Shown: positions 1,106-46,349, numbered from the stretch's first letter. The stretch is DNA of 64,000 nt from Paraspadella gotoi (GCA_051294375.1 CM119270.1:17482893-17546892), one strand, 5' to 3'. Notes: generated by a model not told the origin, from the sequence alone. Numbers and translations are program-made.

Positions 1106-1183
1106 CCCAATTCTTGATGGCGATGATCTTCTGCATCAACGGTTCCCCGGGGACAAACAGTTCGTCGAGGAAGTTGACCCCAA

Positions 1184-1220
<37 letters not shown>

Positions 1221-1599
1221 TCCCGTCGTCGCTTCGTCCATCTGATATTCGTCATCGGCCAAAGCGAAGGAATCGTCGGCCAAATAGTCGTTGTTGTTGT
1301 CCTCGTTGTTGTTGTCGTTTTCATCGAAGAAATCTCTGTAGTTGTCGTCCAACGAGATGTCAAGATGATTGTTGTCGTTGTTGTTGTTGTCGCCATTCCA
1401 CCAACGCGATTCTCTCTCTCGGTGCCGCAATCTGTCCCATTCGCGGCGCCACTCGCGCCAGGTGCGACGCTGCAGGCGCCGACCCGTCGAGCGGCGCGAT
1501 TCTAGTCGACGCCGGGAGGATAAGCGGCGTCGCGAGGAATCAGCGTCGGATTCCGGCGTCGAAGATTTTCGATTCGTCGGTTGAAGATCGACGCCGAAT
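1106..1599 (-). CDS. Chitin-binding protein, probable coding exon C (Arg-rich, then Asp/Asn-rich)
   Basis: Polypyrimidine tract plus CAG acceptor at 1602-1600. In phase with exon B (AG|A TTC GGC GTC = RFGV). Open frame ...RRTWREWRREWDRLRHRERESRWWNGDNNNND...DDDDVGVNFLDELFVPGEPLMQKIIAIKNWG. Candidate GTGAG donor at 1105; otherwise the frame stops at 1080. Confidence 0.6.
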
Positions 1600-1697
1600 C
1601 TGAAGAGGGAAGAGAAGTATTTTTAATTACATTTACATTACTAGATTAATGAATAAGTGTTTACAAAATAGCTGGAGAACATAATGCTCGTAAATAT

Positions 1698-1957
1698 TTA
1701 TGAAATTGGTACAACCAAAATAAAAATTATCCATTCATTTCATGAATAAGCTATCTTGCCCCTGACTTTGGACAGGCTTTGGTGGTTTAAGGCCTCCATC
1801 ACTCTTACAAGATAATGACATAGCAGGTCCTTACAAGCTTTCAATCAAGACTCTCTCAGTCTCGTTTATTTGCTCCCTGAGTACCTGGCTTCCCTATCAA
1901 TGAAGTGGTAAAATTTTTCAAAGAATGTTTCAATTGTATGAAAAAACCACTCCCTTA
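1698..1957. repeat. About 260-bp direct repeat, left flank of the HEPN gene
   Basis: tatgaaattggtacaacc...aaaccactccctta matches 4268-4528 and 22982-23242, with about a dozen substitutions and indels. Confidence 0.9.
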
Positions 1958-2207
1958 GGTATTAGATCGGAGAATATTATATTGTACTCTGCCCAGCATC
2001 AAAATACAAGGAGCTGAATTTTATATTTTTTCATATTTTTCATGCTAAATTTTTAGTTTATTAAATTTTATTATTTTCAGTGTTAGGCTGTTGGGGGCAT
2101 CAAACCCTAAAAGACCACTTTTTTCTACTTGGCGCGATTAATCTAAAAACGGGGAAAAATTTAAGAATTAATTAAATACTACACTTAAGTTTCTCTCTCT
2201 CTCTCTT

Positions 2208-2241
<34 letters not shown>

Positions 2242-2394
2242 AAACAGCAAACTCGTCTATTCAAACCGGTTTCCCAAAATTTGGGAAATGATAAAATCTT
2301 AAAATTGAATGGAATTTACCAGAGCATTGAAAAATACTTAGTATGTACAATTCGTAAAATCGTGATCGCTTTCAATTTTTCAATTTCTGGGACA

Positions 2395-4014
2395 ATGGCT
2401 TCTCAACGTCCTCATACGCCACCGTTTTATCCCATCGACCAGGACCAAGAGGTGACCGCGCGCCATCTATTAGTGTCCGCCGAACGTACTCTCTTTCGTC
2501 TTTGTCGGTTTATGGGCGTGACCGAATACGGGGATGACTTTTCTTCGTTGGCTCAAGCTTTGCTGGAACCGGAAATGCAATCTAAATTGAAGAAGGAACA
2601 AAAGACAGCGCTTTGGCATCTGAGGAATGCGCGCAATGATTATGCTCACCATTGGAATCAAAGCGACGAATCCAAGAGAAATACGATCATAAACAAATTG
2701 AATGTGTCAAGGAATAAACTGATCATCGAGGAAGAAGAAAAGGATGTGAACTACGACGTTAATTTTAAGAGGAAGTACAGAAAAAACCGCGGCCTTCAAA
2801 GAGCTGCTTCAGAACCACACCCTCGAACGTTAGAAAAGGCTTCTGAACGACCTGTGACTCCAACTTTCTATGATATCATCGAGGAACAAGAAGTAGCAGC
2901 ACGAAATCTGTTAGTCACTGCTGAAGTAACTGTTTTTCGTCTCTGTCGGTCCATGGATGTGTCAAACTTTGATAATGAGCTTTTATCAATGGCGGATGCT
3001 TTGCTGAAATCCGAGTATCAACAAAAAGGGGCCCTTTGTTCGCTAAAGAAGGCGCGCAATGATCACGCCCACTGTTGGAACCGGAGTGACAAATCTGAGA
3101 GGAAAAAAATTTTAGAAGATTTGAAATCGGCGATTGGAAGATTGAATGACGAAAGGAATAAAAAGAATAACGCGGGCTTCAGAAAACACGACAATTCAAA
3201 ACCGGGAAATGCTGCCAAAGCACAAAATAGTTTTAAAAAAGAAATTGCGGCTAATCGGAGGCTTATGCAGAAATCACAGGAAGGTCCCCATACAAGTCAA
3301 TCATTAAAACAAAGTCAATTAGCTAAGACAGGACGCTTACCCTGCGGATGCATCAGACCAATATCTCAAATTGGAAGTTCCGAATTGTCTACATCGCCCA
3401 AGAGAATTTCTCTGCCTTTACCATCCCTTCCATCTTCTGAAGTCTCAAAAATGCATTCCACTCACAAAGTTCCATCAATTGAACAAAGTCAATTCCCTAG
3501 GAAAGATTTCCAAAGAGGCAACTCACCCTATCGCACCCAAATATCTGAAAAACGAAGATCCGAATCGATAACAACAATTAATAACACTCATCCCTTACCC
3601 TTACACTCAGGAACGCATTCCACTCTTCCCAAAACACAACAATCACGTACACCTAACCAGATTGGATATATACAATCACAATATAACAATAGGCACCTTC
3701 CTGAACCTACCAATGCAACATTCGACGAAGAAAGATCGAGAAGAATCTCTCACTCTTTCCCGAATACGTCAATCACCTCCCAAGAGCCAGATCGCGTGAA
3801 GAAACCTCCCGGAAAAACAAATATTCATGTCAACAATGGCCAACCATATTCTCAACGGCAAAAGGTTTACGATGACGTCCAGGATTACAGAGCGAGACCG
3901 CCTTATATGATGGCGGATCAAGAAAGAACGGAAACGAAAAGAGAACCGAATTTTTTCCAAAAGTTTTTACGTTCTTTTAGACAATGTTTTTGTTGTCAAT
4001 ATATTCCAGACTAA
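2395..4014 (+). CDS. Intronless tandem-HEPN-domain protein (putative ribonuclease), 539 aa, with a disordered S/T/Q/P-rich tail and a C-terminal basic/Cys cluster
   Basis: The only long non-repetitive ORF (track ORF 2281..4014). First ATG at 2395 is in good context (ACAATGG). Internal duplication of about 100 aa: TPPFYPIDQDQEVTARHLLVSAERTLFRLCR...ALWHLRNARNDYAHHWNQSD vs TPTFYDIIEEQEVAARNLLVTAEVTVFRLCR...ALCSLKKARNDHAHCWNRSD. Each repeat has an N-terminal helix Glu and an R-x4-H motif (RNDYAH 2632-2649, RNDHAH 3055-3072) typical of HEPN nucleases. AATAAA at 4192. The ORF is solid; the HEPN call is by motif only. Confidence 0.8.
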   Translation: MASQRPHTPPFYPIDQDQEVTARHLLVSAERTLFRLCRFMGVTEYGDDFSSLAQALLEPEMQSKLKKEQKTALWHLRNARNDYAHHWNQSDESKRNTIINKLNVSRNKLIIEEEEKDVNYDVNFKRKYRKNRGLQRAASEPHPRTLEKASERPVTPTFYDIIEEQEVAARNLLVTAEVTVFRLCRSMDVSNFDNELLSMADALLKSEYQQKGALCSLKKARNDHAHCWNRSDKSERKKILEDLKSAIGRLNDERNKKNNAGFRKHDNSKPGNAAKAQNSFKKEIAANRRLMQKSQEGPHTSQSLKQSQLAKTGRLPCGCIRPISQIGSSELSTSPKRISLPLPSLPSSEVSKMHSTHKVPSIEQSQFPRKDFQRGNSPYRTQISEKRRSESITTINNTHPLPLHSGTHSTLPKTQQSRTPNQIGYIQSQYNNRHLPEPTNATFDEERSRRISHSFPNTSITSQEPDRVKKPPGKTNIHVNNGQPYSQRQKVYDDVQDYRARPPYMMADQERTETKREPNFFQKFLRSFRQCFCCQYIPD

Positions 4015-4267
4015 ACCCTCTTTTGGTTCAAATGTTAAATATAATTCACTGGTTTGTAAAATTATTGGAGCAGATTATAGAATTTTAGAAAAACCACTAA
4101 TGTTTGTTACCTAATTGAGTAGGAAATTAGTTCTGAGTCACATAATTTAGAAAGACCACTGATTAACCTATTGTCTGTTATTTAACTAAGTAATAAATTG
4201 GTTCTGTATCGGAGAAATTCTGGAACTCTTAATTAATGAAAAAACACTATTTAGACGTTTCCTTATT

Positions 4268-4528
4268 TATATGAAATTGGTACAACCAATATAAAAATTA
4301 TCCATTCATTTAATAAATAAGCTATCTTGCCCCTGACTTTGGACAGGCTTTGGTGGTTTAAGGCCTCCATCACTCTTACAAGATAATGACATAGCAGGTC
4401 CCTGCAAGCTTTCAATCAAGACACTCTCACAGTCTCGTTTATTCACTCCTAGAGTACCTGGCTTCCCTATCAATGAAGTGGAAAATATTTCAAAGAATGT
4501 TTCAATTGTATGAAAAGACCACTCCCTT
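4268..4528. repeat. About 260-bp direct repeat, right flank of the HEPN gene
   Basis: Same sequence and orientation as 1698-1957. Confidence 0.9.
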
Positions 4529-5572
4529 ATATAATAGAATTGTAAATTGGTTCCAACCAATACTTTGACAGAAGATAGTATCATACAGATAAAGCCAGCT
4601 TTTGAGCGTTCAACCTGACGCAACACGTTCTCTATATCAATATAAATTTGACTAAAAGCGCCAAAAAATTGATTTCCTTTTCTATAAGCTAAGATAATCA
4701 AGAAAAATTCGTCTGCGTCTAAATCATGAGGTGAGAAAGGAGGTGAGAAGGATAAACACAAGGGGGTAGGGGGGCGGGTGAGGAAACCATGGAAACGAGG
4801 ATGGAAAGACGGGACCGACAACCAGACTGACCGACCATGCCAGAAAAGTGTGAAGGGCGAGATGTGAGATGATCCGTGATTTTTTTGGCGAGTTAGGTCG
4901 AATCCTCTGACCATGATGACGAGAACGATCATCCGTTGACGTCTCGAGTTCTTTCGCCAATTAACCTCTTGACGCTCATTGACTTCAAAGGTTATTGCAG
5001 ATGGAACGTACGGTGAGATGGATGGGAAAATATATGGTAAAGCATCGACTGTATGAAATAACATTTGATGCGAACAAACACAGAATAATCAGTGTTAGGG
5101 AATAAAAAAGATGTCTTTCAGATTCAAATTTAATACGGAGAAAGTTTTGCCAAAGCCTATTTTGATGGAGCGTTTCGTAAGGAATGACGAGAAAAGAAAA
5201 GAGGGTAAAAGGAACAAATAAATAAAAAAAAGGAAAGAAAAAGAAGAAAATAAAAAAGAAGGGGGGTGGAAAGAGAGATAAAGTAAAAAAGAATGTGAAA
5301 GAATAAAGAAGGAAAAGAAAAGGGAAACTACTTTGAGAGGAAGGGACAGAAAAAGAAAGAAGGCAGAAAAAAGTAAAAAAGAAAGTAAATTAAAAAAGTG
5401 AAAATTTAAAAAAAAAAAGAAAGAAAAGTAGAATAGAAAGAAAAGAAAAGGTTAAAGATAGGAAGAGGATCTAAAAGTGCGGTGAGGAATTTACGAGAGA
5501 TGAGAACAGACGGAAAGGAAAATTACGAGTTGTTTTCTGGCGGAAGAGGAAACGACGGCGTCACTTCGCGCC

Positions 5573-5668
<96 letters not shown>

Positions 5669-5826
5669 GGCGCCGAATTGGCGGCGAGGGGGGGGGGCGA
5701 GAGGGAGAAGGGGAGAGGCGCCGGGAGGTGGGGCGCTGCGGCGTCGATTTAAGAGGGGGACGGGTAGTTGCGAGCGCAATCTCGAGGAGTGCCTAGTGGA
5801 GTGGTGCAAATTGTAGGCGCGCATGA

Positions 5827-5992
5827 TAGAGGGCCGCTGGTTAGAGGGGCGCAGGTAGGGGCGCACAGGATAGAAGGGCGCAGGTCAGAGGTGCACAAAA
5901 TAGAGGGGTGTGGGTTAGATGGGCGCAGGATAGAGGGGTGCAGGTTAGAGGCGCACAGGATACAAGCGCAGGTGAGAGGGTACAGAATAGAG
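5827..5992. repeat. About 30-bp (2 x 15) G-rich minisatellite; also at 24445-24612
   Basis: Units such as agaagggcgcaggtcagaggtgcacaaaat and agaggggtgcaggttagaggcgcacaggat. Confidence 0.75.
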
Positions 5993-6666
5993 CGGAGTCT
6001 GGTATACGAGCGATAAGTTGATAGACGCCTGGTAGAATGGCGCCGGCTTTGACGACGACGACCACAACTGCGACGACAATGACGATGAAGGTGACGACGA
6101 CGACGACGACGACGGCGAAAATTCTGAGCTTTTATGTTTGCCGAATTTGGGTCACTCCTTCAAGCGCCTCATTTTTCTTGATCGCTATTCTCGTCTTCAG
6201 TCAGAATTTATGATCGCGACTAAGCGATTACTTGAATAATGTCTCTTCAGTGTTATTTGAAATTCTTAAATACATTTGCATATTGAAGATTTTAATGTTT
6301 AGGCGAATTGTCGAAAAATTAATGTTCAAAAAAGTTGTGTTAATTTACGTTAATCATCGTTACTTTTAATTATAAATTTTAAACTATTTTTTATTTTAGT
6401 TTTACAAGTATTATTTTACAATATTGGTATTCGCGATTACATATTAAATGTTTTTTTGTCTTAGTTAGTTAGAAATCTGCTTTCGGAAGTGGTTTTTGAA
6501 GCTCATAAAAACAAAATTTCCCGTCTTATTGACAAATTGATTCTATCGGTTATCGTAAAATGAACAGGAATTTAATGTGTTACGTTGTTTAGTCATCCGG
6601 TATTAATGCAATAAAAGTAAATTAAATTACATATTACATTTTCTACCCGAATCAAAGTAAACTTAC

Positions 6667-7105
6667 CTTCTCATTTTCTCTTCTCCGGCCGCAGACGCCG
6701 TCGCCGATTCGTCAAACGACGCCGCGGCGTCACCGGCGCCACTTCCGCTTCCGTCTCTATCGGCGCCGACGACGGAACGCGCGCGCGATGAGAACGAGGC
6801 AGAGAGGATCCTCGTCCGAGAGTCGAGTCGGTCGTCAGAGACGGAGCGACATCTTCCGGCTTTGGAGCTGAAGTAGTGGAAGTCTTCGTTGCTACTGCTG
6901 CCGTTGATGCTGCCGCTGCCGCTTCTTCCGTCTGCTGCTCCCGTTTATCCCCCGATGTCCGTTCGTCCATTCGGCGCCGCAAAGACCAGACCTTGCGGCG
7001 CCGCGGGAATCTTCATCGGCGCCGCAAGAGGGACGATCGTCGGAGCCGCAGTATCGTGAAGCGGCGAGGACGACGCCGGTTTCGTCTCGTTGGCACGAGT
7101 AGAAT
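6667..7105 (-). CDS. Chitin-binding protein, coding exon B (copy 1)
   Basis: TAG acceptor at 7108-7106 and GTAAGT donor at 6666. Phase-compatible with exon A (ACC AA|A TTC TAC TCG TGC = TKFYSC). Continues [15 protein letters not shown]...[14 protein letters not shown]...DPLC...[14 protein letters not shown] in the three-copy consensus; this copy has small indels. Confidence 0.7.
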
Positions 7106-7152
7106 CTAAATTTGGGGGGGGGGGTAATGGAAAGTGAGAGGAAGCCAGTCCT

Positions 7153-7234
<82 letters not shown>

Positions 7235-8522
7235 CTTTTTATCTCTCACAACGATTCGTAAAGTGTAAACTTGATTTAAATCCAGAAAACTATTTTTTTT
7301 TTAAAAAGGCGAGAGAAAAAAAATCTCATTACAATGAAGGCTCGAATGGGACTTGGACTAATTCGATCGTAAAACGCATCGTTTACGACAGAAAATTTAT
7401 TCGAATCGGAAAAAAATATTTTTTTTTGAAAAAAAAAAGCACTAATGATAATAATCGTAAATTTCCTCTCCCTTTCTTAATTTTCCTTCACCACCTTCAC
7501 CACCTTCAACCTTCACCACCTTCACCACCTTCGCCCCAAAACCCACCACCCTACCACACCGCCGATAAAAAAAAAACCCGGGTCGGACCGGGGTTCGATC
7601 CTTTAACACCTCCGACGGCGTGTCTCGGCCCCAAAACAAATCAATCAATCAAAAACCGAAGGCATGTCGCTCTTTAACCTCCTACCCGCCGTCCCGCCCA
7701 CCCCCCCCCCTTTCGGTCTTTTTTCTTTCCGAACGAAAAAGAAAAAAAAATTAAAAGTGAAAAACAAATTTGTTCGCGTCTCACGAATCGTAAAGCGCGT
7801 TGGGAACGTGACCTATCACGAGCCAATCACGAATGGAATCACAACGTGTGGTTAGGAACTTAGGATAAAAGGTATCACAAAATGAATGCAAATAGAAACA
7901 TAAGGAATAGTGAAATTAAGATCGAATCCTACTTTTAATTCTCTAAAAAAAAGAACGGTTATACAAATGTGTTGCGCTTGACTGCCTTCTCACGTATATT
8001 TCTCGTGACATGACATGACGTGACATAACATGACATGACGTGACATGACTACAATAACTTTCTTAGCCCGTGTATTTATGACACGCACTGCATCGGAAAT
8101 TCGTCTTTATAGTTAGTTATAGGATTTCCTAAAGGCGGCGCTATCAGTCACTTAGATTTGATGTTTTTTCCTGCCTTAACAATGAGCAACCAACTATAAG
8201 CAAATTATATGCATTTTTAACGTAAGTGGGACAGACCGACAAACAGACAGACCGACCGAAAAGTGACGAGTACTCGCGATGCAACTAAAAACCCGAATGA
8301 TTATCAACGAAAAATGAATTTTGTCGTTAAAAAACTCAGCGGAAATCCGTGAGAAAATTGACAGGACAAAAATGAAGACTTATGTCATGTTCTCTTTTTT
8401 TTTCCAGTGAGATTTTTCCGGAAAATATTGGCCAACCGCCAACGCTGATCTCATAAATCAAAGTTTTGTGCCGAACGAAACGCCGGGGGTGGAGCGGAGA
8501 GAGAGAGAGAGAGAGAGAGAGA

Positions 8523-8569
<47 letters not shown>

Positions 8570-8974
8570 TAGAGAGATGAGGATAATAGGGTAAATGTTG
8601 GAGCAGGGAGGAAGGAGAATATTAATTTCACTCTTGTGAAACTGGTGACTTTTACGGTTAAAAAGGGGAGGGTTGTTTCGTCCACTTTTTCATTTTGACG
8701 ATTTTCATAATCGTCAAATTGATATTATTTTTTCGTCACGAATCACGGGCCTCACATCTGTGAAAGCTTCACAACCGTCGCCCAGATGGAAAAGGAAATC
8801 GATTCTTAGCGATTAAATTATAATCGTGAAGGATGAAAACAGAATAAAATGGAATATTGAATAATGGATGACATAATACAAAAAAAAAAAAAAAAAATTC
8901 AATGTAAAATATTTTATTTTTTTATAAGAAATTAAACTAGTCTTCATTTTATTATATTTTCTTTCACAACTCAC

Positions 8975-9175
8975 TTGGTACAATCCCATGGATCACCGAA
9001 GATGCCCTCAGCTGGACACCGGAAGTTGCCCCCGAACCCTCCTCCTCCTCTTCCTCCTCTTTCATGACCGGAAATGACGTCACTTCCGGTCTGTTTGACG
9101 CCAAAGTTTGACGACGACGACGACGACGACGACGACGAAGGGAAATCGTCGCGTCGTTGGGCGTCGAGAGGACAT
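8975..9175 (-). CDS. Chitin-binding type-2 (CBM14/peritrophin-A)-like secreted protein, coding exon A (copy 1)
   Basis: Consensus with copies 2 and 3 reads [67 protein letters not shown]: a signal-peptide-like start followed by the C-P-x-x-G-x-F-x-D-P-x-D-C start of a ChtBD2 domain. GTGAG donor after 8975; CAG acceptor before 9179. This copy has a 1-bp insertion near 9106. Confidence 0.7.
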
Positions 9176-9181
9176 CAATCT

Positions 9182-9395
9182 GAATGAATGGAAACTTGGA
9201 TGGTTGGATGGATGTATGATTGGATGGATGGATGAAAAGTTGAAAAGTTGAACGGATGGATGAATGGATTAAAGAATGAAAAGTAGGATGGATGGTTAAA
9301 TGAAAAGTTGAACGGATGGAAGATGTTTTCAAGAATGAATGAATGAAAAGTAGGATGGATAGGAGAATGGATGGATGGTTTAAATGAAAAGTTTT
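9182..9395. repeat. Degenerate (GGAT/GAAT)n microsatellite with a tgaaaagt subrepeat, intronic
   Basis: Direct inspection; immediately upstream of the exon A acceptor. Confidence 0.8.
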
Positions 9396-10344
9396 AAAAA
9401 ACTCATTGAATTTTTATGAGAGATTGGGGATTTGTTGAATCTTTGAAACGACGAATGAAACGAAACGCATTATATATCTTTATTCGCTAGCATTAAAAAC
9501 TTTAAATTTATATAGTTAAAATTATTATAATGCAATATACGACTGACTAGATGACAGATTGAGAGAAAAACGGAAAGATTAATTCCGATGTTCAGACGTT
9601 TATTCCGGACTACAACAAAAGCCAAACCGACTTGAAAACAAAGGAACATTTTAAGCAGCGAAAAATTAGAATTGATTTATCGTCGTCTCTCAGCCAAATG
9701 TACTTAAAAATATTTGAGTAGGTATATAGGGGCTAAGATAATGGTCGTGAGCTGATGATGACTTGACGCAATGAGCCACAGAAGTTGTCATGAGTAAAGT
9801 CGATGTCAACTTTGTAATGTCCGACGACAAATAAATTCCCCGTCTGTTTCAAGTTATGCGAATTTACGAAAAAGTTGCAGTTTTAAAACCAAGATTTAAA
9901 AGAAAGGAAAAAGAAAAAGTCCATAATTTAATAATAAAAAGGAAATTCGTACACCCTCCTCTCGTTGCAAAAAAGTATTGGAACATTTACTGTCGTCACA
10001 AGAAGCAACATTAGTTCGTAAAATCTTTTTTTTTCACTTTTAAGATTTTTTTTGACCAGGTTCATTTCGCCGCCATTTTGTTTTTTTTTTTTGGTGAAAC
10101 CGATTTTATTTTTTTTAAATAATTTTCTTTTGTTTTTGTTTTGATCGTAGAAAAAAAAAGTTTATCGCGTCGATTGAATATTTCATGCAACTTTTTGGAT
10201 CCGATGTTGTGTTTGTTGCGTTTCGATTTTGCTCCTATTTTTTGTTCGAGATGTTTTTGCGTTTCTGGTCAAAAATTAATCATTCACTCTTGGAGATGAA
10301 TTATTCAAATGGATTTTTAAAAAGAGGGAGGGTTGGTGGGGGAA

Positions 10345-10458
<114 letters not shown>

Positions 10459-10971
10459 CAGAGTTTTTTTCGTCAAGTATGACAGCAGTTTTGCCAGGAC
10501 GTTTTTATGAATAATTATTGGAATCTGCGGTGAAGAGAGAAATGGCTTATAAAAAGTCCATGAAGTAATAAATATCCAACGATTACGAATGAGCACAATA
10601 ATGCCTAAAAAAACCGAAAACCCATTACTAAAATGGGATTACAAACGTAGTGTAATATTTTTAGAAGTCCGATGCTCCATAACAAAATCAAAACTGAAAG
10701 AAAAAAAAATCAATTCGCCGAAACTTATTGTTGCGACTTAAATAAATAAAGATGAGTAATAGTAATATTTAATATGAAACATTAATCAAAAATGGATGAA
10801 GAGAGAGACCCATGGATCGAAAAAAAATATCGATGAATTGTAATAAATTGTAATAAATTGTAATAAATAGTGAAAAGGATTTTAGGAAGGAAATCGACTG
10901 GGACGTCAATGACCAATAAAACCGTCAAGAAAATTTATCTCAAAGGATCGAAAATGAAGAGGGATTTTAAG

Positions 10972-11600
10972 TATTTTTCTTTTTTTTTTCTTTTTTTTTC
11001 TTATTCTTTTTCTTTTTCTTTCTTATTCTTTTTCTTTTTCTTTTTATTCTTTTTCTTACTTATTCTTTTCTTTTTCTTTTTTTTTCTTATTTTTTTATTT
11101 ATTTTTTTCTTTTTCTTTCTCATTCTTTTTCTTTTCTTTTTTTCTATTTTTTTTTCTTTTCTTTCTTATTCTTTTCTTTTTTCTTTCTTATTTTTTTCTT
11201 TTTCTTTTTTTAAATTATTTTTCTTTCTTATTCTTTTTCTTTTTTTTTTTTTTTCTTTTTTATTTCTTTTTCTTTTTCTTGGTTCCGATTCCATCTGTGA
11301 TACTTAAAATTTTGTTTTCCTTTTATTTCTGTTTCTTTTTTTATTCGTTTTCTATTTCTTTTACTTCCCTTTGCTCTTTCTTCATCTCTCGTTTTATACT
11401 TTTTATTTCTTTTTCTTTCTTATTCTTTATCTTTTTCTTTCTTTTACTCTTTCTTTTCTTTTTTCTTTCTTTTTTTTCTTCACTGACCTTTTCTTCTATT
11501 TCTACTTTTTTGGGGGGTATTTCATCTTTCTATTATTCTCTTTTCTTTCCTTCCTTTTTTTCTTTCTAATTTGTTTTCTTATTATCTTTTTTTTCTTTAA
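10972..11600. repeat. T/C-rich low-complexity tract (also 18095-18720 and 29715-30320)
   Basis: Degenerate (TTTTC/TTATTC)n. The Phe-rich ORFs here are artefacts. Confidence 0.9.
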
Positions 11601-12149
11601 CATGAACGTAAAGAACCTATTTTATGTTTTTTTCAAGCATTTGAAACTTATATTAGTTTTTGGGGCAGAGTGATTTCTCAGTATTAGTTTGGAGTAAATT
11701 TAATTCACTTGGTAACTCGCCAAAGTTACTGACTTTTACTATCGTTGTTTAAATGTCATCTTTTTGAAAAGTTATATATATATGTATTTTCACGAACAAA
11801 ATATATGAAGTTAAAAAGTGGAAAACGTTAAATTGACCAATAATGAAAATAAGATAAGCTAAACATAAAAAATAAAGCGAAAATGGAAGAAACATTACTA
11901 TTACAATACATTACATTACAATACTAAAAATGAAATAAAGATCAACCTTTGATCCACGATTGAAACGAACAACGACCTGATGTAAACAACAACAACACAA
12001 ACAACAGAAATCGAAATTGGAATCAAAGACCAAACATTTTTCGTCTGATTCTTTGAAATTATATTGGGATTTTGTGAATGAGAATGCGTTACTTATTCAC
12101 AACGTTATACTTTCAAGTTTATTTTTAAATTCGAAAAAAAGAGAGGGAA

Positions 12150-12238
<89 letters not shown>

Positions 12239-13026
12239 TTGTTCCTGAAGCCATGTAACCTTGAAAGAAAATGATAATCCATTCCACCATCCTTGCGAAA
12301 ATAAAAAAAAGAAGTAAAATAAATAAAAACGAGGGAAGTTTGAACATTTAAAAAAATGTTTCAAAATATATTCGTCTTTTTATTTCGCAAAAAAACTTGG
12401 ACGAGGATAACTTTTAAGGGAAACGAGGAGTCGTCAAACAAAAGTCGTCCCGCGCTAATCGCAAAAAAAATTTAAGGGGAGAGGAGAATCCCGAGTTTAC
12501 AAACGGCGCCGCGACGGAGGGACGACTTTTTATGGCCCCTTAAACCTTTTTTTTCGCCAGATATTTTTTTCAGGAGAGTTTTAATCGGGTTCGATTTTAA
12601 TGTTGCTTCGTCGTTTGGGCGTAAAAATTGTCCAGTAATGTTCGAGTGGAAAAAAATATTTGTAAGCTGGTGAAACTAAATAGTAAGAAAAACACAATAG
12701 CTGTTTTTGATTTTTTTTTTTAACTAAGAGAATTTGGGATTATTCGTTTTCAAAGCCACATTTGCATCAACTTCTCTCCACTTTTCCTCCTAATATTTTT
12801 GTCTTTTTTTTTCCTTCTTTAAATTTTTTTCCTCTTCAGTCATTCGAGCTTTTTTAATCCCTTAAGATTAAACTTAAGTTTATTTCCCGCTTTTTTTTTT
12901 CATCTTAGTTTTTTTAGAATTTTTGGAGTAGGAATGATTTAAAAAAAACAAAAAACAACGGTACTCAAAAATTTAACCTACATATACTTAAAAGTGATAT
13001 ANNNNNNNNNNNNNNNNNNNNNNNNN

Positions 13027-14229
13027 AGAGGCGCACAGGATATACAAGCGCAGGTGAGAGGGGTACAGAATAGAGCGGAGTCTGGTATACGAGCGATAAG
13101 TTGATAGACGCCTGGTAGAATGGCGCCGGCTTTGACGACGACGACCACAACTGCGACGACAATGACGATGAAGGTGACAACGACGACGACGACGACGGCG
13201 AAAATTCTGAGCTTTTATGTTTGCCCGAATTTGGGTCACTCCTTCAAGCGCCTCATTTTTCTTGATCGCTATTCTCGTCTTCAGTCAGAATTTATGATCG
13301 CGACTAAGCGATTACTTGAATAATGTCTCTTCAGTGTTATTTGAAATTCTTAAATACATTTGCATATTGAAGATTTTAATGTTTAGGCGAATTGTAGAAA
13401 AATTAATGTTCAAAAAAGTTGTGTTAATTTACGTTAATCATCGTTACTTTTAATTATAAATTTTAAACTATTTTTTATTTAGTTTTACAAGTATTATTTT
13501 ACAATAATTGGTATTCGCGATTACATATTAAATGTTTTTTTTGTCTTAGTTAGTTAGAAATCTGCTTTCGGAAGTGGTTTTTGAAGCTCATAAAAACAAA
13601 ATTCCCGTCTTATTGACAAATTGATTCTATCGGTTATCGTAAAATGAACAGGAATTTAATGTGTTACGTTGTTTAGTCATCCGGTATTAATGCAATAAAA
13701 GTAAATTAAATTACATATTACATTTTCTACCCGAATCAAAGTAAACTTACCTTCTCATTTTCTTCTTCTCCGGCCGCAGACGCCGTCGCCGATTCGTCAA
13801 ACGACGCCGCGGCGTCACCGGCGCCACTTCCGCTTCCGTCTCTATCGGCGCCGGACGACGGAACCGCGCGTCGATGAGAACGAGGCAGAGAGGATCCTCG
13901 TCCGAGAGTCGAGTCGGTCGTCGAGAGACGGAGCGACATCTTCCGGCTTTGGAGCTGAAGTAGTGGAAGTCTTCGTTGCTACTGCTGCCGTTGATGCTGC
14001 CGCTGCCGCTTCTTCCGCTGCTGCTCCCGTTTATCCCCCGATGTCCGTTCGTCCATTCGGCGCCGCAAAGACCAGACCTTGCGGCGCCGCGGGAATCTTC
14101 ATCGGCGCCGCAAGAGGGACGATCGTCGGAGCCGCAGTATCGTGAGCGGCGAGGACGACGCCGGTTTCGTCTCGTTGGCACGAGTAGAATCTAAATTTGG
14201 GGGGGGGGGGTAATGGAAAGTGAGAGAAG

Positions 14230-14278
<49 letters not shown>

Positions 14279-14285
14279 CTCTCTC

Positions 14286-14326
<41 letters not shown>

Positions 14327-15597
14327 CTATCTTTTATCTCTCACAACGATTCGTAAAGTGTAAACTTGATTTAAATCCAGAAAACTATTTTTTTTTTAAA
14401 AAGGCGAGAGAAAAAAAATCTCATTACAATGAAGGCTCGAATGGGACTTGGACTAATTCGATCGTAAAACGCATCGTTTACGACAGAAAATTTATTCGAA
14501 TCGGAAAAAAATATTTTTTTTTGAAAAAAAAAAAGCACTAATGATAATAATCGTAAATTTCCCTCCTCCCTTTCTTAATTTTCCTTCACCACCTTCACCA
14601 CCTTCACCACCTTCACCACCTTCACCACCTTCGCCCCAAAACCACCACCCTACCACACCGCCGATAAAAAAAAAACCCGGGTCGGACCGGGGTTCGATCC
14701 TTTAACACCTCCGACGGCGTGTCTCGGCCCCAAAACAAATCAATCAATCAAAAACCGAAGGCATGTCGCTCTTTAACCTCCTACCCGCCGTCCCGCCCAC
14801 CCCCCCCCCCTTTCGGTCTTTTTTCTTCCGAACGAAAAAGAAAAAAAAATTAAAAGTGAAAAAACAGAATTTGTTCGCGTCTCACGAATCGTAAAGCGCG
14901 TTGGGAACGTGACCTATCACGAGCCAATCACGAATGGAATCACAACGTGTGGTTAGGAACTTAGGATAAAAGGTATCACAAAATGAATGCAAATAGAAAC
15001 ATAAGGAATAGTGAAATTAAGATCGAATTCCTACTTTTAATTCTCTAAAAAAAAGAACGGTTATCAAATGTGTTGCGCTTGACTGCCTTCTCACGTATAT
15101 TTCTCGTGACATGACATGACGTGACATAACATGACATGACGTGACATGACTACAAATAACTTTCTTAGCCCGTGTATTTATGACACGCACTGCATCGGAA
15201 ATTCGTCTTTATAGTTAGTTATAGGATTTCCTAAAGGCGGCGCTATCAGTCACTTAGATTTGATGTTTTTTCCTGCCTTAACAATGAGCAACCAACTATA
15301 AGCAAATTATATGCATTTTTAACGTAAGTGGGACAGACCGACAAACAGACAGACCGACCGAAAAGTGACGAGTACTCGCGATGCAACTAAAAACCCGAAT
15401 GATTATCAACGAAAAATGAATTTTTGTCGTTAAAAACTCAGCGGAAATCCGTGAGAAAATTGACAGGACAAAAATGAAGACTTATTGTCATGTTCTCTTT
15501 TTTTTTTCCAGTGAGATTTTTCCGGAAAATATTGGCCAACCGCCAACGCTGATCTCATAAATCAAAGTTTGTGGCCCGAACGAAAGCCCGGGGGTGG

Positions 15598-15676
<79 letters not shown>

Positions 15677-17484
15677 AGAGAGAGAAGAGATAGAGAGAGA
15701 TGAGGATAATAGGGTAAATGTTGGGAGGCAGGGAGGAAGGAGAATATTAATTTCACTCTTGTGAAACTGGTGACTTTTACGGTTAAAAAGGGGAGGGTTG
15801 TTTCGTCCACTTTTTCATTTTGACGATTTTCATAATCGTCAAATTGATATTATTTTTCGTCACGAATCACGGGCCTCACATCTGTGAAAGCTTCACAACC
15901 GTCGCCCAGATGGAAAAGGAAATCGATTCTTAGCGATTAAATTTAATCGTGAAGGATGAAAACAGAATAAAATGGAATATTGAATAATGGATGACATAAT
16001 ACAAAAAAAAAAAAAAAAAATTCAATGTAAAATATTTTATTTTTTTATAAGAAATTAAACTAGTTCTTCATTTTATTATATTTTCTTTCACAACTCACTT
16101 GGTACAATCCCATGGATCACCGAAGATGCCCTCAGCTGGACACCGGAAGTTGCCCCCGAACCCTCCTCCTCCTCTTCCTCCTCTTTCATGACCGGAAATG
16201 ACGTCACTTCCGGTCTGTTTGACGCCAAAGTTGACGACGACGACGACGACGACGACGACGAAGGGAAATCGTCGCGTCGTTGGGCGTCGAGAGGACATCA
16301 ATCTGAATGAATGGAAACTTGGATGGTTGGATGGATGTATGATTGGATGGATGGATGAAAAGTTGAAAAGTTGAACGGATGGATGAATGGATTAAAGAAT
16401 GAAAAGTAGGATGGATGGTTAAATGAAAAGTTGAACGGATGGAAGAATGTTTTCAAGAATGAATGAATGAAAAGTAGGATGGATAGGAGAATGGATGGAT
16501 GGTTAAATGAAAAGTTTTAAAAAAAATCATTGAATGAATTTTATTGAGAGATTGGGGATTTGTTGAATCTTTGAAACGACGAAATGAAACGAAACGCATT
16601 ATATATCTTTATTCGCTAGCATTAAAAACTTTAAATTTATATAGTTAAAATTATTATAATGCAATATACGACTGACTAGATGACAGATTGAGAGAAAAAC
16701 GGAAAGATTAATTCGCGATGTTCAGACGTTTATTCCGGACTACAACAAAAGCCAAACCGACTTGAAAACAAAGGAACATTTTAAGCAGCGAAAAATTAGA
16801 ATTGATTTATCGTCGTCTCTCAGCCAAATGTACTTAAAAATATTTGAGTAGGTATATAGGGGCTAAGATAATGGTCGTGAGCTGATGATGACTTGACGCA
16901 ATGAGCCACAGAAGTTGTCATGAGTAAAGTCGATGTCAACTTTGTAATGTCCGACGACAAATAAATTCCCCGCTCTGTTTCAAGTTATGCGAATTTACGA
17001 AAAAGTTGCAGTTTTAAAACCAAGATTTAAATAAGAAAGGAAAACAAGAAAAAGTCCATAATTTAATAATAAAAAGGAAATTCGTACACCCTACTCACTC
17101 GTTATGCAAAAAAGTAGTTGGAACATTTTACTGTCGTCACAAGAAGCAACATTAGTTCGTAAAATCTTTTTTTTTCACTTTTAAGATTTTTTTTGACCAG
17201 GTTCATTTCGCCGCCATTTTGTTTTTTTTTTTTTGGTGAAACCGATTTATTTTTTTTAAATAATTTTCTTTTGTTTTTGTTTTGATCGTAGAAAAAAAAA
17301 GTTTATCGCGTCGATTGAATATTTCATGCAACTTTTTGGATCCGATGTTGTGTTTGTTGCGTTTCGATTTTGCTCCTATTTTTTGTTCGAGATGTTTTTG
17401 CGTTTCTGGTCAAAAATTAATCATTCACTCTTGGAGATGAATTATTCAAATGGATTTTTAAAAAGAGGGAGGGTTGGTGGGGGA

Positions 17485-17573
<89 letters not shown>

Positions 17574-19276
17574 TTTTTTCCACAGAGTTTTTTTCGTCAA
17601 GTATGACAGCAGTTTTGCCAGGACGTTTTTATGAATAAATTATTGGAATCTGCGGTGAAGAGAGAAATGGCTTATAAAAGTCCATGAAGTAATAAATATC
17701 CAACGATTACGAATGAGCACAATAATGGCCTAAAAAAACCGAAAACCCATTACTAAAATGGGATTACAAACGTAGTGTAATATTTTTAGAAGTCCGATGC
17801 TCCATAACAAAATCAAAACTGAAAGAAAAAAAAATCAATTCGCCGAAACTTATTGTTGCGACTTAAATAAATAAAGATGAGTAATAGTAATATTTAATAT
17901 GAAACATTAATCAAAAATGGATGAAGAGAGAGACCCATGGATCGAAAAAAAATATCGATGAATTGTAATAAATTGTAATAAATTGTAATAAATAGTGAAA
18001 AGGATTTAGAAAGGAAATCGACTGGGACGTCAATGACCAATAAAACCGTCAAGAAAATTTATCTCAAAGGATCGAAAATGAAGAGGGAATTTTAAGTATT
18101 TTTCTTTTTTTTTTCTTTTTTTTTCTTATTCTTTTTCTTTTTCTTTTCTTATTCTTTTTCTTTTTCTTTTTATTCTTTTTCTTACTTATTCTTTTCTTTT
18201 TCTTTTTTTTTCTTATTTTTTTATTTATTTTTTTTCTTTTTCTTTCTCATTCTTTTTCTTTTCTTTTTTTTCTTATTTTTTTTTCTTTTTCTTTCTTATT
18301 CTTTTCTTTTTTCTTTCTTATTTTTTTCTTTTTCTTTTTTTTAAAATTATTTTTCTTTTCTTATTCTTTTTCTTTTTTTCTTTTTTATTCTTTTTCTTTT
18401 TCTTGGTTCCGATTCCATCTGTGATACTTAAAATTTTGTTTTCCTTTTATTTCTGTTTCTTTTTTTTCGTTTTCTATTTCTTTTACTTCCCTTTGCTCTT
18501 TCTTCATCTCTCGTTTTATACTTTTTTATTTCTTTTTCTTTCTTATTCTTTATCTTTTTCTTTCTTTTACTCTTTCTTTTCTTTTTTTCTTTCTTTTTTT
18601 CTTCACTGACCTTTTCTTCTATTTCTACTTTTTTGGGGGGTATTTCATCTTTCTATTATTCTCTTTTCTTTCCTTCCTTTTTTTCTTTCTAATTTGTTTT
18701 CTTATTATCTTTTTTTTCTTTTAACATGAACGTTAAAAGAACCTATTTTATGTTTTTTTTCAAGCATTTGAAACTTATATTAGTTTTTGGGGCAGAGTGA
18801 TTTCTCAGTATTAGTTTGGAGTAAATTTAATTCACTTGGTAACTCGCCCAAAGTTACTGACTTTTACTATCGTTGTTTAAATGTCATCTTTTTGAAAAGT
18901 TATATATATATGTATTTTCACGAACAAAATATATGAAGTTAAAAAGTGGAAAACGTTAAATTGACCAATAATGAAAATAAGATAAGCTAAACATAAAAAA
19001 TAAAGCGAAAATGGAAGAAACATTACTATTACAATACATTACATTACAATACTAAAAATGAAATAAAGATCAACCTTTGATCCACGATTGAAACGAACAA
19101 CGACCTGATTAACAACAACAACAACAACAACAGAAAAATCGAAATTGGAATCAAAGACCAAACATTTTTCGTCTGATTCTTTGAAATTATATTGGGATTT
19201 TTGAATGAGAATGCGTTACTTATTCACAACGTTATACTTTCAAGTTTATTTTTAAATTCGAAAAAAAGAGAGGGAA

Positions 19277-19363
<87 letters not shown>

Positions 19364-21260
19364 GAGAGAGAGATTGTTCCTGAAGCCATGTAACCTTGAA
19401 AGAAAATGATAATCCATTCCACCATCCTTGCGAAAATAAAAAAAAGAAGTAAAAAATAAATAAAAACGAGGGAAGTTTGAACATTTAAAAAAAATGTTTC
19501 AAAATATATTCGTCTTTTTATTTTCGCAAAAAACTTGGACGAGGATAACTTTTAAGGGAAACGAGGAGTCGTCAAAACAAAAGTCGTCCGCGCCGCTAAT
19601 CGCAAAAAAAATTTAAGGGGAGAGGAGAATCCCGAGTTTACAAACGGCGCGCGGACGGAGGGACGACTTTTTATGGCCCCTTAAACCTTTTTTTTTCGCC
19701 AGATATTTTTTTCAGGAGAGTTTTAATCGGGTTCGATTTTAATGTTGCTTCGTCGTTTGGGCGTAAAAATTGTCCAGTAATGTTCGAGTGGAAAAAAATA
19801 TTTGTAAGCTGGTGAAACTAAATAGTAAGAAAAACACAATAGCTGTTTTTGATTTTTTTTTTTAACATAAGAGAATTTGGGATTATTCGTTTTCAAAGCC
19901 ACATTTGCATCAACTTCTCTCCACTTTTCCTCCTAATTATTTTTGTTCTTTTTTTTTCCTTCTTTAAATTTTTTTCCTCTTCAGTCATTCGAGCTTTTTT
20001 AATCCCTTAAGATTAAACTTAAGTTTATTTCCCGCTTTTTTTTTTTGTATCTTAGTTTTTTTAGAATTTTTGGAGTAGGAATGATTTAAAAAAACAAAAA
20101 AAACAACGGTACTCAAAAATTTAAACCTACATATACTTAAAAGTGATATTTTAATTTTTTTATATATTTATAATTTGATTTAATATTACTAAGTACTACG
20201 TCAGACACCTCTCAGTCAAAAACTTAACCGATCGTAACCATCTTTCCAATTACGACGGAAATATCGCAGAATCTCTCTCGAAATAATAATAAATGTTTAA
20301 ATCAAATTTTTTACCTTATTCCTCGTTTATTTTATCTTAACAACTTCCAAGACAAAAAAAAAACGCATTTAAAAAAATAAATACAAAACGGCTTCTCGCC
20401 TATTTTTTCCCCCAATTAAAATAAAAAAAATAATTCTTAGAGTCTTATCGTGAAATTTTTTTCGAGCCTTCCGGAACGAAAGGGGGGCGAGTGGGGGGGG
20501 GGAGAAGAATGCAGATAAGGCAAGCCGATGAAGGGAAGGCAGAAGAAAAACAGGAGCCACGGGATCGAATGAGAGAGATGGGACAAGCAAAGCATATAAA
20601 TTATCAAGTAGAAAAAAGATGATTAAAGAAGGGACTAGCAGCGCTTTTAAATCATTAAGATCAAAGAATTAGGATTTATATAAATCGTTCTTCAGAAGAA
20701 AAAAAAAAGATGACAAAGATGAGACAATGAGAACATCCTGAAAGAAAGCTTCGGGAAGGAGCAGACCAGCAACAGCGGGTACTTGGTAAGTGATGATGAA
20801 AGAGCGAGTACATTGCCAGGAGCGTTTTTGGCAGCTTGACAGAGGGCGCTCGAGAGACGTGAAGAGACGCGGAAGACCCGCCACATTTCTCCAATTAGTC
20901 GACACAAAAAATTCCGCGAAGATAAAAAATATTTGAGAAAATGTAAAAAAAATGTAAAAAAAGTTTTGGTTTTTTTTTTTTCGTTTTTTTTTCCCCGGTC
21001 TGTTTTTTATTATTTCTAGGGCAAGCAAAAAATGAAGATGATATCTTTTTTTGAAGACAATTTTTTTTTTAAATTTTTTCTTATTCTCTTATCGATGTTA
21101 AGAATCACGGTGAAAAAATAAAAAAAGAGAGAAATGATCTTCCGGTATTTTTATTTTTTTTTAAAATTCGAGTTTTAGTGTCGGAAAAAAAAAAGAGGTT
21201 TAAAGGCATATTTCGTGGTTCTTTGAAACCTGGGCTCGAAATTAAAAAAACCAGAGAGAG

Positions 21261-21306
<46 letters not shown>

Positions 21307-21437
21307 GGGGGGGATTTGCTAGCCGCGGTTTTTTAAATCAGGGAAAAAAATCGAACCTGCTCATTTACCAATAAGACATTTAATAAAAGGTTAGTACGGG
21401 ACATCAGTCGTAAAGTGAGTCTTTATTTCTAGTTGAT
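13027..21437. repeat. Segmental block copy 2, bounded by 25-N gaps
   Basis: Starts just after the gap at 13002-13026 and ends at the gap at 21438-21462. Differs from copy 1 mostly by homopolymer indels. Confidence 0.9.
13751..16298 (-). CDS. Second copy of chitin-binding gene exons A (16099-16298) and B (13751-14190)
   Basis: Near-identical to 6667-9175. Exon A is intact (track ORF 16095..16301); exon B has a 1-bp deletion near 14146. Probably an uncollapsed assembly duplicate. Confidence 0.55.
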
Positions 21438-21569
21438 NNNNNNNNNNNNNNNNNNNNNNNNNCTCATTACAATCAAGGCTCGAATGGGACTTGGGCTAAT
21501 TAGATCGTAAAACGCATCGTTTACGACAGAAAATTTATTCGAATCGGAAAAAAAATATTTTTTTTTGAT

Positions 21570-24192: not shown

Positions 24193-24284
<92 letters not shown>

Positions 24285-25766: not shown

Positions 25767-25864
<98 letters not shown>

Positions 25865-27209: not shown

Positions 27210-27287
<78 letters not shown>

Positions 27288-29101: not shown

Positions 29102-29200
<99 letters not shown>

Positions 29201-30874: not shown

Positions 30875-30934
<60 letters not shown>

Positions 30935-32787: not shown

Positions 32788-32833
<46 letters not shown>

Positions 32834-32961
32834 GGGGGGATTTGCTAGCCCGGTTTTTAAATCAGGGAAAAAAATTCGAACCTGCTTCATCCAAATAAGA
32901 CAATTTAATAAAAGGTTAGTACGGACATCAGTCGTAAAGTGAGTCTTTATTTCTAGTTGAT
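22881..32961. repeat. Segmental block copy 3 (probable alternative haplotype)
   Basis: Homologous to 4165-13001 plus 20150-21437, but carries multi-base indels and substitutions not seen in copies 1 and 2. Confidence 0.85.
25287..27891 (-). CDS. Third copy of chitin-binding gene exons A (27686-27891) and B (25287-25726)
   Basis: Exon A is intact (track ORF 27682..27894). Exon B reads [19 protein letters not shown]... in frame until a 1-bp deletion near 25342. Carries variants suggesting an alternative allele. Confidence 0.55.
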
Positions 32962-45119: not shown

Positions 45120-45201
<82 letters not shown>

Positions 45202-45557: not shown

Positions 45558-45638
<81 letters not shown>

Positions 45639-46199: not shown

Positions 46200-46249
46200 A
46201 ATAGAATATTTAGGCGTTTAGGAATTTTTGGTAATTTGTAATTTAATTT

Positions 46250-46349
<100 letters not shown>

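What the first reader, a model, noticed from the sequence alone, without database searches (positions are those of the whole stretch)
2395..4014. Single-chain tandem-HEPN protein in an animal-like genome: candidate self-contained ribonuclease effector
Seen: two homologous helical-looking repeats of about 100 aa (nt about 2416-2720 and 2857-3150). Each keeps an upstream Glu (SAERTL / TAEVTV) and an intact R-N-D-x-A-H motif although much of the rest has diverged. Established: HEPN RNases (Swt1, Las1, the KEN domain of RNase L/IRE1, DZIP3-type HEPN, bacterial Abi/toxin HEPNs) build one active site from two R-x4-6-H motifs, usually by homodimerisation, whereas Cas13 carries both on one chain. Inference: this protein could form an intramolecular HEPN pseudo-dimer and act as a stand-alone RNase in antiviral, transposon-control or stress/cell-death pathways. 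No sensor domain (NACHT, ankyrin, kinase, PIN) is visible, an architecture I do not recognise from described eukaryotic HEPN proteins.
Basis: partly seen in the sequence, partly recalled or inferred. Interest (0 to 1): 0.9.

Follow-up and report, generated by a model that had tools for sequence, protein, structure and literature searches.

The report
Orphan eukaryotic double-HEPN RNase candidate
An intact gene of an unidentified eukaryote carries two duplicated copies of a predicted RNA-cutting (HEPN) domain on one chain, which likely pair into one enzyme held at a membrane by a predicted lipid anchor; double-domain proteins of this kind are already listed from water fleas and other animals, so it is a new variant and not a new principle.

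Summary
ORF 2395-4014 (539 aa, intronless) has two ~105-aa repeats, 52 of 93 aligned residues identical, dN/dS about 0.2. Each keeps E...R-N-D-x-A-H. HEPN homology is likely (about 0.9). Repeat 1 folds confidently (pLDDT 89.5); its best Foldseek match by probability and TM-score is HEPN protein 1wwp; PADLOC Csx1 matches weakly. All scores are below formal thresholds, and canonical helix 1 seems missing. No homologue was found in any collection. New here: a C-terminal amphipathic helix plus CFCC (likely lipid anchor) after a 260-aa basic disordered tail; a probable position antisense in another gene's intron; contig cover in one probable RNA run; and flanking high-copy repeats with a twister-ribozyme-like motif. 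Pairing of the two domains and RNase activity are untested. The novelty claim fails in part: Yoon et al. 2024 (Table S2) list 8 eukaryotic clusters among 12 with an intramolecular HEPN dimer, including stand-alone Daphnia proteins. The scan had no earlier look-alike of this protein; its other HEPN findings are sensor-fused. Verdict: new variant of a known kind.

The parts
2395..4014 (+). Intronless ORF, 539 aa (P0001)
   Evidence: held by runs of 3 studies, one of which may be the source; contigs of probable RNA run X9 cover 2322-2479, 2498-3289 and 3312-3935
2398..2727 (+). HEPN-like repeat 1 (aa 2-111); predicted helices aa 16-39, 49-56, 59-62, 67-89, 92-110; E30; R80-N81-x-x-A84-H85
   Evidence: Pfam DUF4145 E 0.0069 and HEPN_Swt1 E 0.052, both below cut-off
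2632..2649 (+). Motif 1, RNDYAH
2728..2838 (+). Charged linker; 54 aa lie between the end of repeat 1's last conserved helix and the first helix of repeat 2 (aa 108-161)
   Evidence: no significant similarity to the stretch after repeat 2
2839..3159 (+). HEPN-like repeat 2 (aa 149-255); E177; R221-N222-x-x-A225-H226
   Evidence: PADLOC Csx1 E 3e-4 on this repeat alone; not folded on its own
3055..3072 (+). Motif 2, RNDHAH
3175..3948 (+). S/P/Q/R/K-rich tail, likely disordered (aa 261-539 carry net charge +21); holds an in-frame 81-nt indel polymorphism at 3337-3417
   Evidence: composition; indel; disorder inferred from composition
3949..3996 (+). C-terminal amphipathic helix (aa 519-529) followed by CFCC (aa 531-534): likely S-acylated membrane anchor
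   Evidence: highest hydrophobic moment of all 11-residue windows in the protein, 0.89; no transmembrane helix, maximum hydropathy 0.96; lipidation inferred from general knowledge
1106..1599 (-). Probable exon of a host gene on the opposite strand; the ORF likely lies in the intron upstream of it
   Evidence: acceptor- and donor-like sites; X9 contig 24 leaves the window at 1601 with 598 unlike letters while contigs of three DNA runs run through
1695..2021 (-). Left copy of a high-copy repeat with a type-P5 twister-like motif at 1761-1803
4268..4538 (-). Right copy of the same repeat, same orientation, 93% identical; twister-like motif at 4332-4374

Best explanation
This is an intact nuclear gene whose two duplicated repeats are predicted HEPN domains that likely pair within one chain into a single RNA-cutting site, probably tethered to a membrane by a predicted lipid-modified C-terminal helix at the end of a long, likely disordered tail. 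Shown: the ORF, the duplication, constraint on the repeats, both intact R-N-x-x-A-H motifs, the terminal amphipathic helix and cysteine cluster. Predicted: HEPN-like fold of repeat 1 (about 0.9). Inferred: cis pairing, because HEPN sites need two motifs and a 54-aa linker is ample (about 0.7 given HEPN); metal-independent RNA cleavage by R/N/H (about 0.65); S-acylation and membrane tethering (about 0.6); a defence or stress role, as proposed for lineage-specific eukaryotic HEPNs (about 0.5). With no sensor domain, control would come from expression, location, or release from the tether; this step is speculation.
For: Purifying selection between repeats: dN 0.31, dS 1.53, dN/dS 0.20, 0 of 2000 bootstraps reach 1; codon-position identity 0.70/0.83/0.45 over 93 codon pairs. 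Repeat-1 model pLDDT 89.5, pTM 0.78, with the motif in the last turns of the helix before the final helix, about where PMC3710099 places it. Foldseek: HEPN protein 1wwp is rank 2 by E-value and has the best probability (0.91) and TM-score (0.58) of the rows shown. VIA-align: 2hsb Z 7.7 (rmsd 3.0, 93 aligned), 1wwp 7.6 (3.4, 91), Csm6 4rgp 7.6 (3.5, 94). Of the 12 rows out of 50 that align 89 or more residues, 7 are HEPN by title or by PMC3710099 Table 1 and 3 more by my recall; this cut-off was chosen after seeing the list. PADLOC: Csx1 E 3e-6 for both repeats and 3e-4 for repeat 2 alone, plus DUF3644 and a CARF_HEPN model among 5 families, against 0 of 10 control ORFs with any hit. Asn at position 2 and a small residue at position 5 fit active HEPNs (10.1101/760058). 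That paper also built a Las1 HEPN-HEPN fusion with a short Gly-Ser linker for its assays (methods passage). None of the 8 listed single-base variants touches the E, R, N, A or H of either motif, and the one indel in the ORF keeps the frame. Probable RNA run X9 has contigs over 2322-3935.
Against: No match passes a formal threshold: Pfam hits are below cut-off, Foldseek E is 0.58, and the best VIA Z is 7.9 for a non-HEPN protein (WeiTsing), in a range the tool calls common for helical bundles. The matches begin at residue 19-23 of 1wwp and 2hsb, so the fragment appears to lack canonical helix 1. The acidic motif reads Ex4R, not Ex3[KR]. Repeat 2 was not folded alone. Within-species variants are 6 non-synonymous to 2 synonymous, near the neutral ratio (small, truncated sample). 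One of them, H86N in run X7, sits next to catalytic H85, although H86 is Cys in repeat 2. With no homologues, motif conservation across species cannot be tested. Contigs cannot show strand, so X9 cover could be intronic RNA of the host gene.
Confidence: 0.5

Rival explanations
1. Both repeats are active HEPN domains but pair in trans (repeat 1 with repeat 1 of another chain, or head to tail), so clustering at the membrane switches the RNase on, as oligomerisation does for Ire1 and RNase L.
For: Trans homodimers are the usual HEPN arrangement. The repeats are still about half identical, so like-with-like surfaces may persist. A membrane anchor would concentrate chains. This gives a switch without a sensor domain.
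Against: A covalently linked partner on a 54-aa linker should outcompete a free one (inference). Predicted intramolecular dimers are listed for other tandem animal HEPNs.
Confidence: 0.2
2. The protein has HEPN folds but little or no nuclease activity today: an RNA-binding scaffold, or a young lineage-specific gene now under relaxed selection.
For: Near-neutral ratio of variants, 6 non-synonymous to 2 synonymous; apparent lack of helix 1; inactive eukaryotic HEPN dyads exist, as in Swt1.
Against: Inactive HEPNs usually lose the motif, yet both copies here keep R, N, A, H and the upstream E after synonymous sites diverged strongly (dS about 1.5). No nonsense or frameshift variant is listed.
Confidence: 0.17
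3. The repeats are an unrelated small helical bundle, and the RNxxAH motif is coincidence duplicated once.
For: All profile and fold scores are sub-threshold; top VIA row is not a HEPN; Foldseek has no match with E of 0.001 or less.
Against: Strict motif chance is about 1%. Pfam, PADLOC, Foldseek and VIA-align each point to HEPN families, and control ORFs give no PADLOC hit.
Confidence: 0.08
4. The gene is cargo of a composite mobile unit bounded by two twister-bearing repeats (a retrozyme- or Penelope-like arrangement), which moved or retro-copied it into the intron.
For: Intronless ORF flanked on both sides, 2.57 kb apart and in one orientation, by 93%-identical repeats whose 71-nt ribozyme-like cores are identical.
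Against: The repeat is very abundant (summed contig depth up to tens of thousands of times that of the ORF), so two nearby copies can be chance. The ORF lays as long contigs with 0-4 differences at a depth like neighbouring unique DNA (the tool warns that depth is no copy number). The ribozyme motifs are antisense to the ORF. No transposon gene among 71 window ORFs. Target-site duplications were not examined.
Confidence: 0.05

Closest known systems
Daphnia tandem-HEPN proteins E9GBY7, E9GQ59, E9HS57, A0A162SAE3 (Yoon et al. 2024, PMC12165695 Table S2); compare the 46-copy Swt1-like HEPN expansion in Daphnia (PMC3710099)
   Same: Animal proteins listed with a predicted intramolecular HEPN dimer and no other annotated domain; compact repeats; by eye similar ARND/RN..H motifs. 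A0A162SAE3 (545 aa) by eye also adds a long low-complexity region and a hydrophobic terminus.
   Different: No sequence relationship was detected in database searches, and a direct comparison was not run. Here the repeats are still about half identical (recent duplication), lie at the N-terminus, and are followed by a basic tail ending in an amphipathic helix plus CFCC. No expansion is seen in the window.
Cas13 (type VI CRISPR effector)
   Same: Two R-x4-H HEPN motifs on one chain; in Cas13 these form one site in cis (PMC12165695; 10.1101/760058).
   Different: No recognition lobe or large helical domains; 539 aa with a disordered tail; eukaryotic. It may work like the Cas13 catalytic core but is not a Cas13.
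C6orf70/ERMARD (DUF4209) family
   Same: Eukaryotic, predicted active, membrane-associated HEPN RNase (PMC3710099); three DUF4209 proteins are among the intramolecular dimers in PMC12165695 Table S2.
   Different: No DUF4209 match and no transmembrane helix here; ERMARD is ancient and conserved, while this protein is an orphan.
Swt1
   Same: HEPN dyad in a eukaryotic protein; weak HEPN_Swt1 match (E 0.052).
   Different: Swt1's dyad is described as inactive and fused to a PIN nuclease; here both motifs are intact and there is no PIN.
Compact prokaryotic HEPNs: DUF4145, HEPN-T (1wwp, 2hsb), Csx1/Csm6 HEPN
   Same: Best profile and fold matches; domain size; R-N-x-x-A-H motif.
   Different: These are single domains that homodimerise under control of an antitoxin or CARF sensor; identity is only 9-16% and scores are sub-threshold.

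Membership tests
HEPN superfamily | All-helical domain of about 100-120 aa | tested here: met
   104-aa model of repeat 1, pLDDT 89.5, helices only; definition in PMC3710099 section 6
HEPN superfamily | Rx4-6H motif at the end of helix 3, polar residue after R, small residue at position 5 | tested here: met
   R80-N-D-Y-A-H85 in the last turns of helix aa 67-89; R221-N-D-H-A-H226 in repeat 2 by alignment (criteria)
HEPN superfamily | Upstream acidic residue, typically Ex3[KR], in the helix near the motif | tested here: inconclusive
   E30 and E177 are conserved in the first long helix but read Ex4R; distance to the motif in the model was not available
HEPN superfamily | Four-helix up-down fold with an insert between helices 2 and 3 | tested here: inconclusive
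   Three long helices plus a helical insert match 1wwp, 2hsb and Csm6 (TM 0.58; Z 7.6-7.7), but alignments start at their residues 19-23, so helix 1 has no counterpart in the fragment; Z under 8 is common for bundles
HEPN superfamily | Profile match to a HEPN family above its cut-off | tested here: inconclusive
   DUF4145 16.9 bits vs 23.1; HEPN_Swt1 14.3 vs 27.5; PADLOC Csx1 E 3e-4 on one repeat, no curated cut-off given
HEPN superfamily | Motif-dependent RNase activity | not testable with these tools
   needs a bench assay
Single-chain (cis) HEPN dimers | Two intact motifs on one chain | tested here: met
Single-chain (cis) HEPN dimers | The two motifs face each other in one site | tested here: inconclusive
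   two-domain single-sequence model pLDDT 41, pTM 0.24; no complex prediction was available
Cas13 | crRNA-binding lobe and helical domains around the HEPN pair | tested here: not met
   only two repeats, a 54-aa linker and a low-complexity tail; no Cas13 profile among Pfam, PADLOC or NCBIfam hits
Daphnia-type Swt1-like tandem HEPN | Sequence homology to the Daphnia proteins | tested here: inconclusive
   no hit; whether these entries are in those libraries was not checked; direct pairwise comparison not run
C6orf70/ERMARD (DUF4209) | DUF4209 domain and a single transmembrane helix | tested here: not met
   no DUF4209 hit at E up to 10; maximum 19-residue hydropathy 0.96
Swt1 | PIN domain with an inactive HEPN dyad | tested here: not met
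   no PIN match; both motifs intact

The most novel reading that the evidence does not exclude
An independently born, guide-free 'Cas13-like core' in a eukaryote: a compact HEPN gene duplicated recently enough that the step from homodimer to one-chain heterodimer is still readable. It would be a pre-assembled RNase on a lipid-anchored disordered leash, armed by release from the membrane rather than by a sensor domain. I found no HEPN RNase with a lipid anchor in one search (listing only).
Probability: 0.2. Interest if true: 0.75.

Novelty: new variant of a known kind. Interest (0 to 1): 0.48.

Why it matters
If active, it is a 260-residue one-chain HEPN RNase in which each half-site can be mutated separately. 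That makes the open question of whether both motifs are needed directly testable; they are in Cas13 and Las1, but not in Ire1 or RNase L (10.1101/760058). It would also be an independent, recent origin of the Cas13-type cis dimer. Eukaryotic stand-alone tandem HEPNs appear in a supplementary table of a CRISPR paper, and my searches turned up no functional test of one, so the class is under-studied. The limits are that the architecture has precedent, the gene is an orphan from one unnamed species, and nothing here shows activity or a role in defence.

Tried and rejected
Homologue searches, all empty. 5.8-billion-protein index: aa 1-260 at near lengths, 0 of 2448 candidates; repeat alignment against longer proteins, 0 of 1802; near lengths, 0 of 55. 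1.84 billion representatives: 0 at E up to 0.001. Metagenome, genome and viral contigs: 0 of 224, 9 and 7 pattern matches confirmed. ESM Atlas: no usable hit for aa 1-260 or 10-110. PDB sequences: one chance hit. Plasmids and phages: one chance hit each. NCBIfam and PHROGs: only weak unrelated hits. Runs X10 and X11 of two other organisms: nothing laid at 80% (no proof of absence).

Structure. The two-domain single-sequence model was uninformative. The viral fold library gave nothing. The complex prediction of repeat 1 with repeat 2 and the pdb_via second look were not available, so there is no verdict on pairing.

No whole genome is held, so paralogues elsewhere are untested; tblastn finds none in the window. 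A 41-nt match at 3089-3129 to another contig in X9 and X6 has flanks without the motif and was rejected as a paralogue.

The frame is open upstream to 2176 and an acceptor-like site lies at about 2247. An N-terminal coding extension was judged unlikely because a 5-nt insertion at 2262 is seen in three runs; a 5' exon cannot be excluded.

LTR reading of the flanking repeats: rejected, as they are high-copy interspersed elements. Bacterial contamination: rejected, as the ORF lies in gap-free sequence with a spliced exon and host repeats and is polymorphic across studies.

X9 has no cover at 2115-2320 and 3990-4262, where DNA runs cover most of these stretches; this is noted only, not used as evidence. 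No listed holder is on record as RNA.

A duplication extending into the linker or inside the tail is not significant at protein level. The idea that 36.9-43.7 kb is a reversed assembly block was rejected. PD-T4-2_B was not confirmed as a HEPN (listing only), so it is not counted as support.

Full report
Observation. The ORF 2395-4014 is real: 539 codons, with 22-34 stops in each other frame and a chance of 2e-16. It is the only long, complex ORF in the window; 71 other ORFs gave no informative Pfam match. Two repeats align at 51% identity, E 2e-36, each with a conserved Glu (E30, E177) and R-N-D-x-A-H (80-85, 221-226). Over 93 aligned codon pairs dN is 0.31 and dS 1.53 (dN/dS 0.20; none of 2000 bootstraps reaches 1), with identity 0.70, 0.83 and 0.45 at codon positions 1-3. 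The duplicate was therefore kept under protein-level selection for a long time.

Is it HEPN? Likely, but below formal thresholds. Pfam gives DUF4145 (E 0.0069) and HEPN_Swt1 (E 0.052), both under cut-off. PADLOC gives Csx1 (E 3e-6 for both repeats, inflated by the duplication; 3e-4 for repeat 2 alone) and four weaker families including DUF3644 and a CARF_HEPN model; 0 of 10 control ORFs hit anything. DUF4145, DUF3644, Swt1 and Csx1 are HEPN families in PMC3710099 Table 1. Repeat 1, folded with repeat 2 as its only alignment row, reached pLDDT 89.5 and pTM 0.78. Foldseek found nothing at E up to 0.001, but HEPN protein 1wwp had by far the best probability (0.91) and the best TM-score (0.58). 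VIA-align over 48,161 chains put 2hsb, 1wwp and Csm6 at Z 7.6-7.7 with 91-94 residues aligned, tied with non-HEPN WeiTsing (7.9, 84 aligned). Of the 12 rows out of 50 that align 89 or more residues, 7 are documented HEPNs and 3 more are by my recall (Cas RNP 9fcv, Roquin, HepS); this cut-off is post hoc. Against: Z under 8 is common for bundles; the alignments skip the first 18-22 residues of 1wwp and 2hsb, so canonical helix 1 seems absent; the acidic motif is Ex4R, not Ex3[KR]. The strict motif alone has about 1% chance per repeat.

Rest of the protein. Residues 261-539 are S/P/Q/R/K-rich with net charge +21. The last 21 residues hold the most amphipathic helix of the protein (aa 519-529, moment 0.89) followed by CFCC, and there is no transmembrane helix. 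From general knowledge (recalled, no call), such ends are S-acylated membrane anchors; this is inference.

Genomic setting. Nine of 11 listed runs, from 3 studies of one organism, hold the stretch; one study may be its source. It lays as long contigs with few differences at a depth like neighbouring unique DNA. Listed variants in the ORF are 6 non-synonymous and 2 synonymous (one table was cut by 16 rows) plus an 81-nt in-frame indel in the tail. None hits a motif residue; H86N lies beside H85 at a position that is Cys in repeat 2. This ratio is near neutral and is the main hint of relaxed or diversifying selection, on very small numbers. Run X9 is probably RNA: one contig leaves the window at 1601, at a minus-strand acceptor-like site, with 598 unlike letters, where contigs of three DNA runs go on. 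This defines a probable minus-strand exon at 1599-1106 and places the HEPN gene antisense in an intron. X9 contigs cover 2322-2479, 2498-3289 and 3312-3935, consistent with transcription, though strand is unknown. A high-copy repeat flanks the gene on both sides and carries a weak type-P5 twister match (25.8 bits, gathering score 37.6; E 0.066 on 13 kb, 0.0023 on 451 nt). It has a 9-bp closing stem but an unremarkable folding z-score of -0.64. I treat it as a neighbour, not part of the system.

Relatives. None were found in any collection, and there is no earlier look-alike in this scan. No genome is held, so paralogues are untested beyond the window.

Mechanism. HEPN RNases build one site from two motifs, in trans or in cis (10.1101/760058, passages). 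Two intact motifs, a 54-aa linker and long-term constraint favour a cis dimer. This could not be tested: the two-domain model had pLDDT 41 and no complex prediction was available. The tail and anchor suggest a tethered enzyme controlled by location or release. A defence role rests on analogy with lineage-specific eukaryotic HEPNs (PMC3710099). Overall 0.5; trans pairing 0.2; inactive or relaxed 0.17; not HEPN 0.08; mobile cargo 0.05.

Comparison and novelty. In 2019, cis heterodimers were said to be seen only in Cas13. PMC12165695 then reported 12 AlphaFold clusters with an intramolecular HEPN dimer. Its Table S2 shows that 8 of the 12 are eukaryotic and 7 animal: four Daphnia proteins, one mussel protein, and three DUF4209 proteins from sea urchin, midge and a fungus. 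PMC3710099 lists HEPN dyads in Swt1 and archaeal Csx1 and solo active HEPNs expanded in Daphnia; PMC11090510 notes two HEPNs in bacterial CnuE. So the architecture has precedent. What differs is an orphan compact family, a recent duplication with both motifs canonical, and a likely lipid-anchored tail.

Papers seen. PMC3710099: sections 5, 6, 7, 16 and passages. 10.1101/760058, PMC11090510, PMC6765202: passages. PMC12165695: passages, Table S2 in full (long cells cut) and parts of Table S1; its supplementary text and fig. S1 could not be read and may discuss the eukaryotic hits. All others: search listings only. These ten searches showed no functional study of a eukaryotic stand-alone tandem HEPN; the library lacks most subscription journals.

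Verdict. Observation confirmed; interpretation partly supported; new variant of a known kind; interest 0.48.

Noticed in passing
window 1761-1803, 4332-4374 and about 23047-23089, minus strand: High-copy repeat (about 270-320 nt) with a type-P5 twister-like motif lacking P3, below Rfam's gathering score; by eye a 9-bp closing stem and a compensatory change in one pseudoknot. Contig joints 2021 to 4270 at high depth suggest head-to-tail copies elsewhere, as in retrozyme-like elements.
   Followed up: partly
window 1106-1599, minus strand: Probable spliced exon of an unidentified gene (R/S-rich then acidic, ending ...KIIAIKNWG); no Pfam, NCBIfam, PHROGs or PADLOC match of note; its 598-nt upstream part in run X9 was not located.
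   Followed up: partly
window 4165-13000 vs 13027-21437 vs 22881-32961; 43717-49683 vs 54538-60473: Multi-kilobase blocks recur two or three times at 95-97% identity, separated by N gaps: uncollapsed haplotypes or segmental duplications. The copy starting at 22881 has different DNA (21463-22880) upstream, where the first copy has the HEPN gene.
   Followed up: partly
window 3297-3565: Short direct similarities inside the tail (3297-3331 vs 3471-3505, 77%; 3360-3385 vs 3540-3565) hint at an old duplication of about 58 codons; not significant at protein level.
   Followed up: yes
window 3089-3129: A 41-nt, 35-of-41 match to a different contig in runs X9 (2636 nt) and X6; the flanks lack the HEPN motif, so probably chance.
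   Followed up: partly
window 36900-43700: About 7 kb of non-repeated, purine-skewed, CpG-rich DNA with no ORF above 119 aa and no Pfam match of note; possibly a decayed element.
   Followed up: partly
whole window: CpG is not depleted (observed/expected 0.9-1.8 in nine stretches) and AG microsatellites are dense; no tRNA genes.
   Followed up: no
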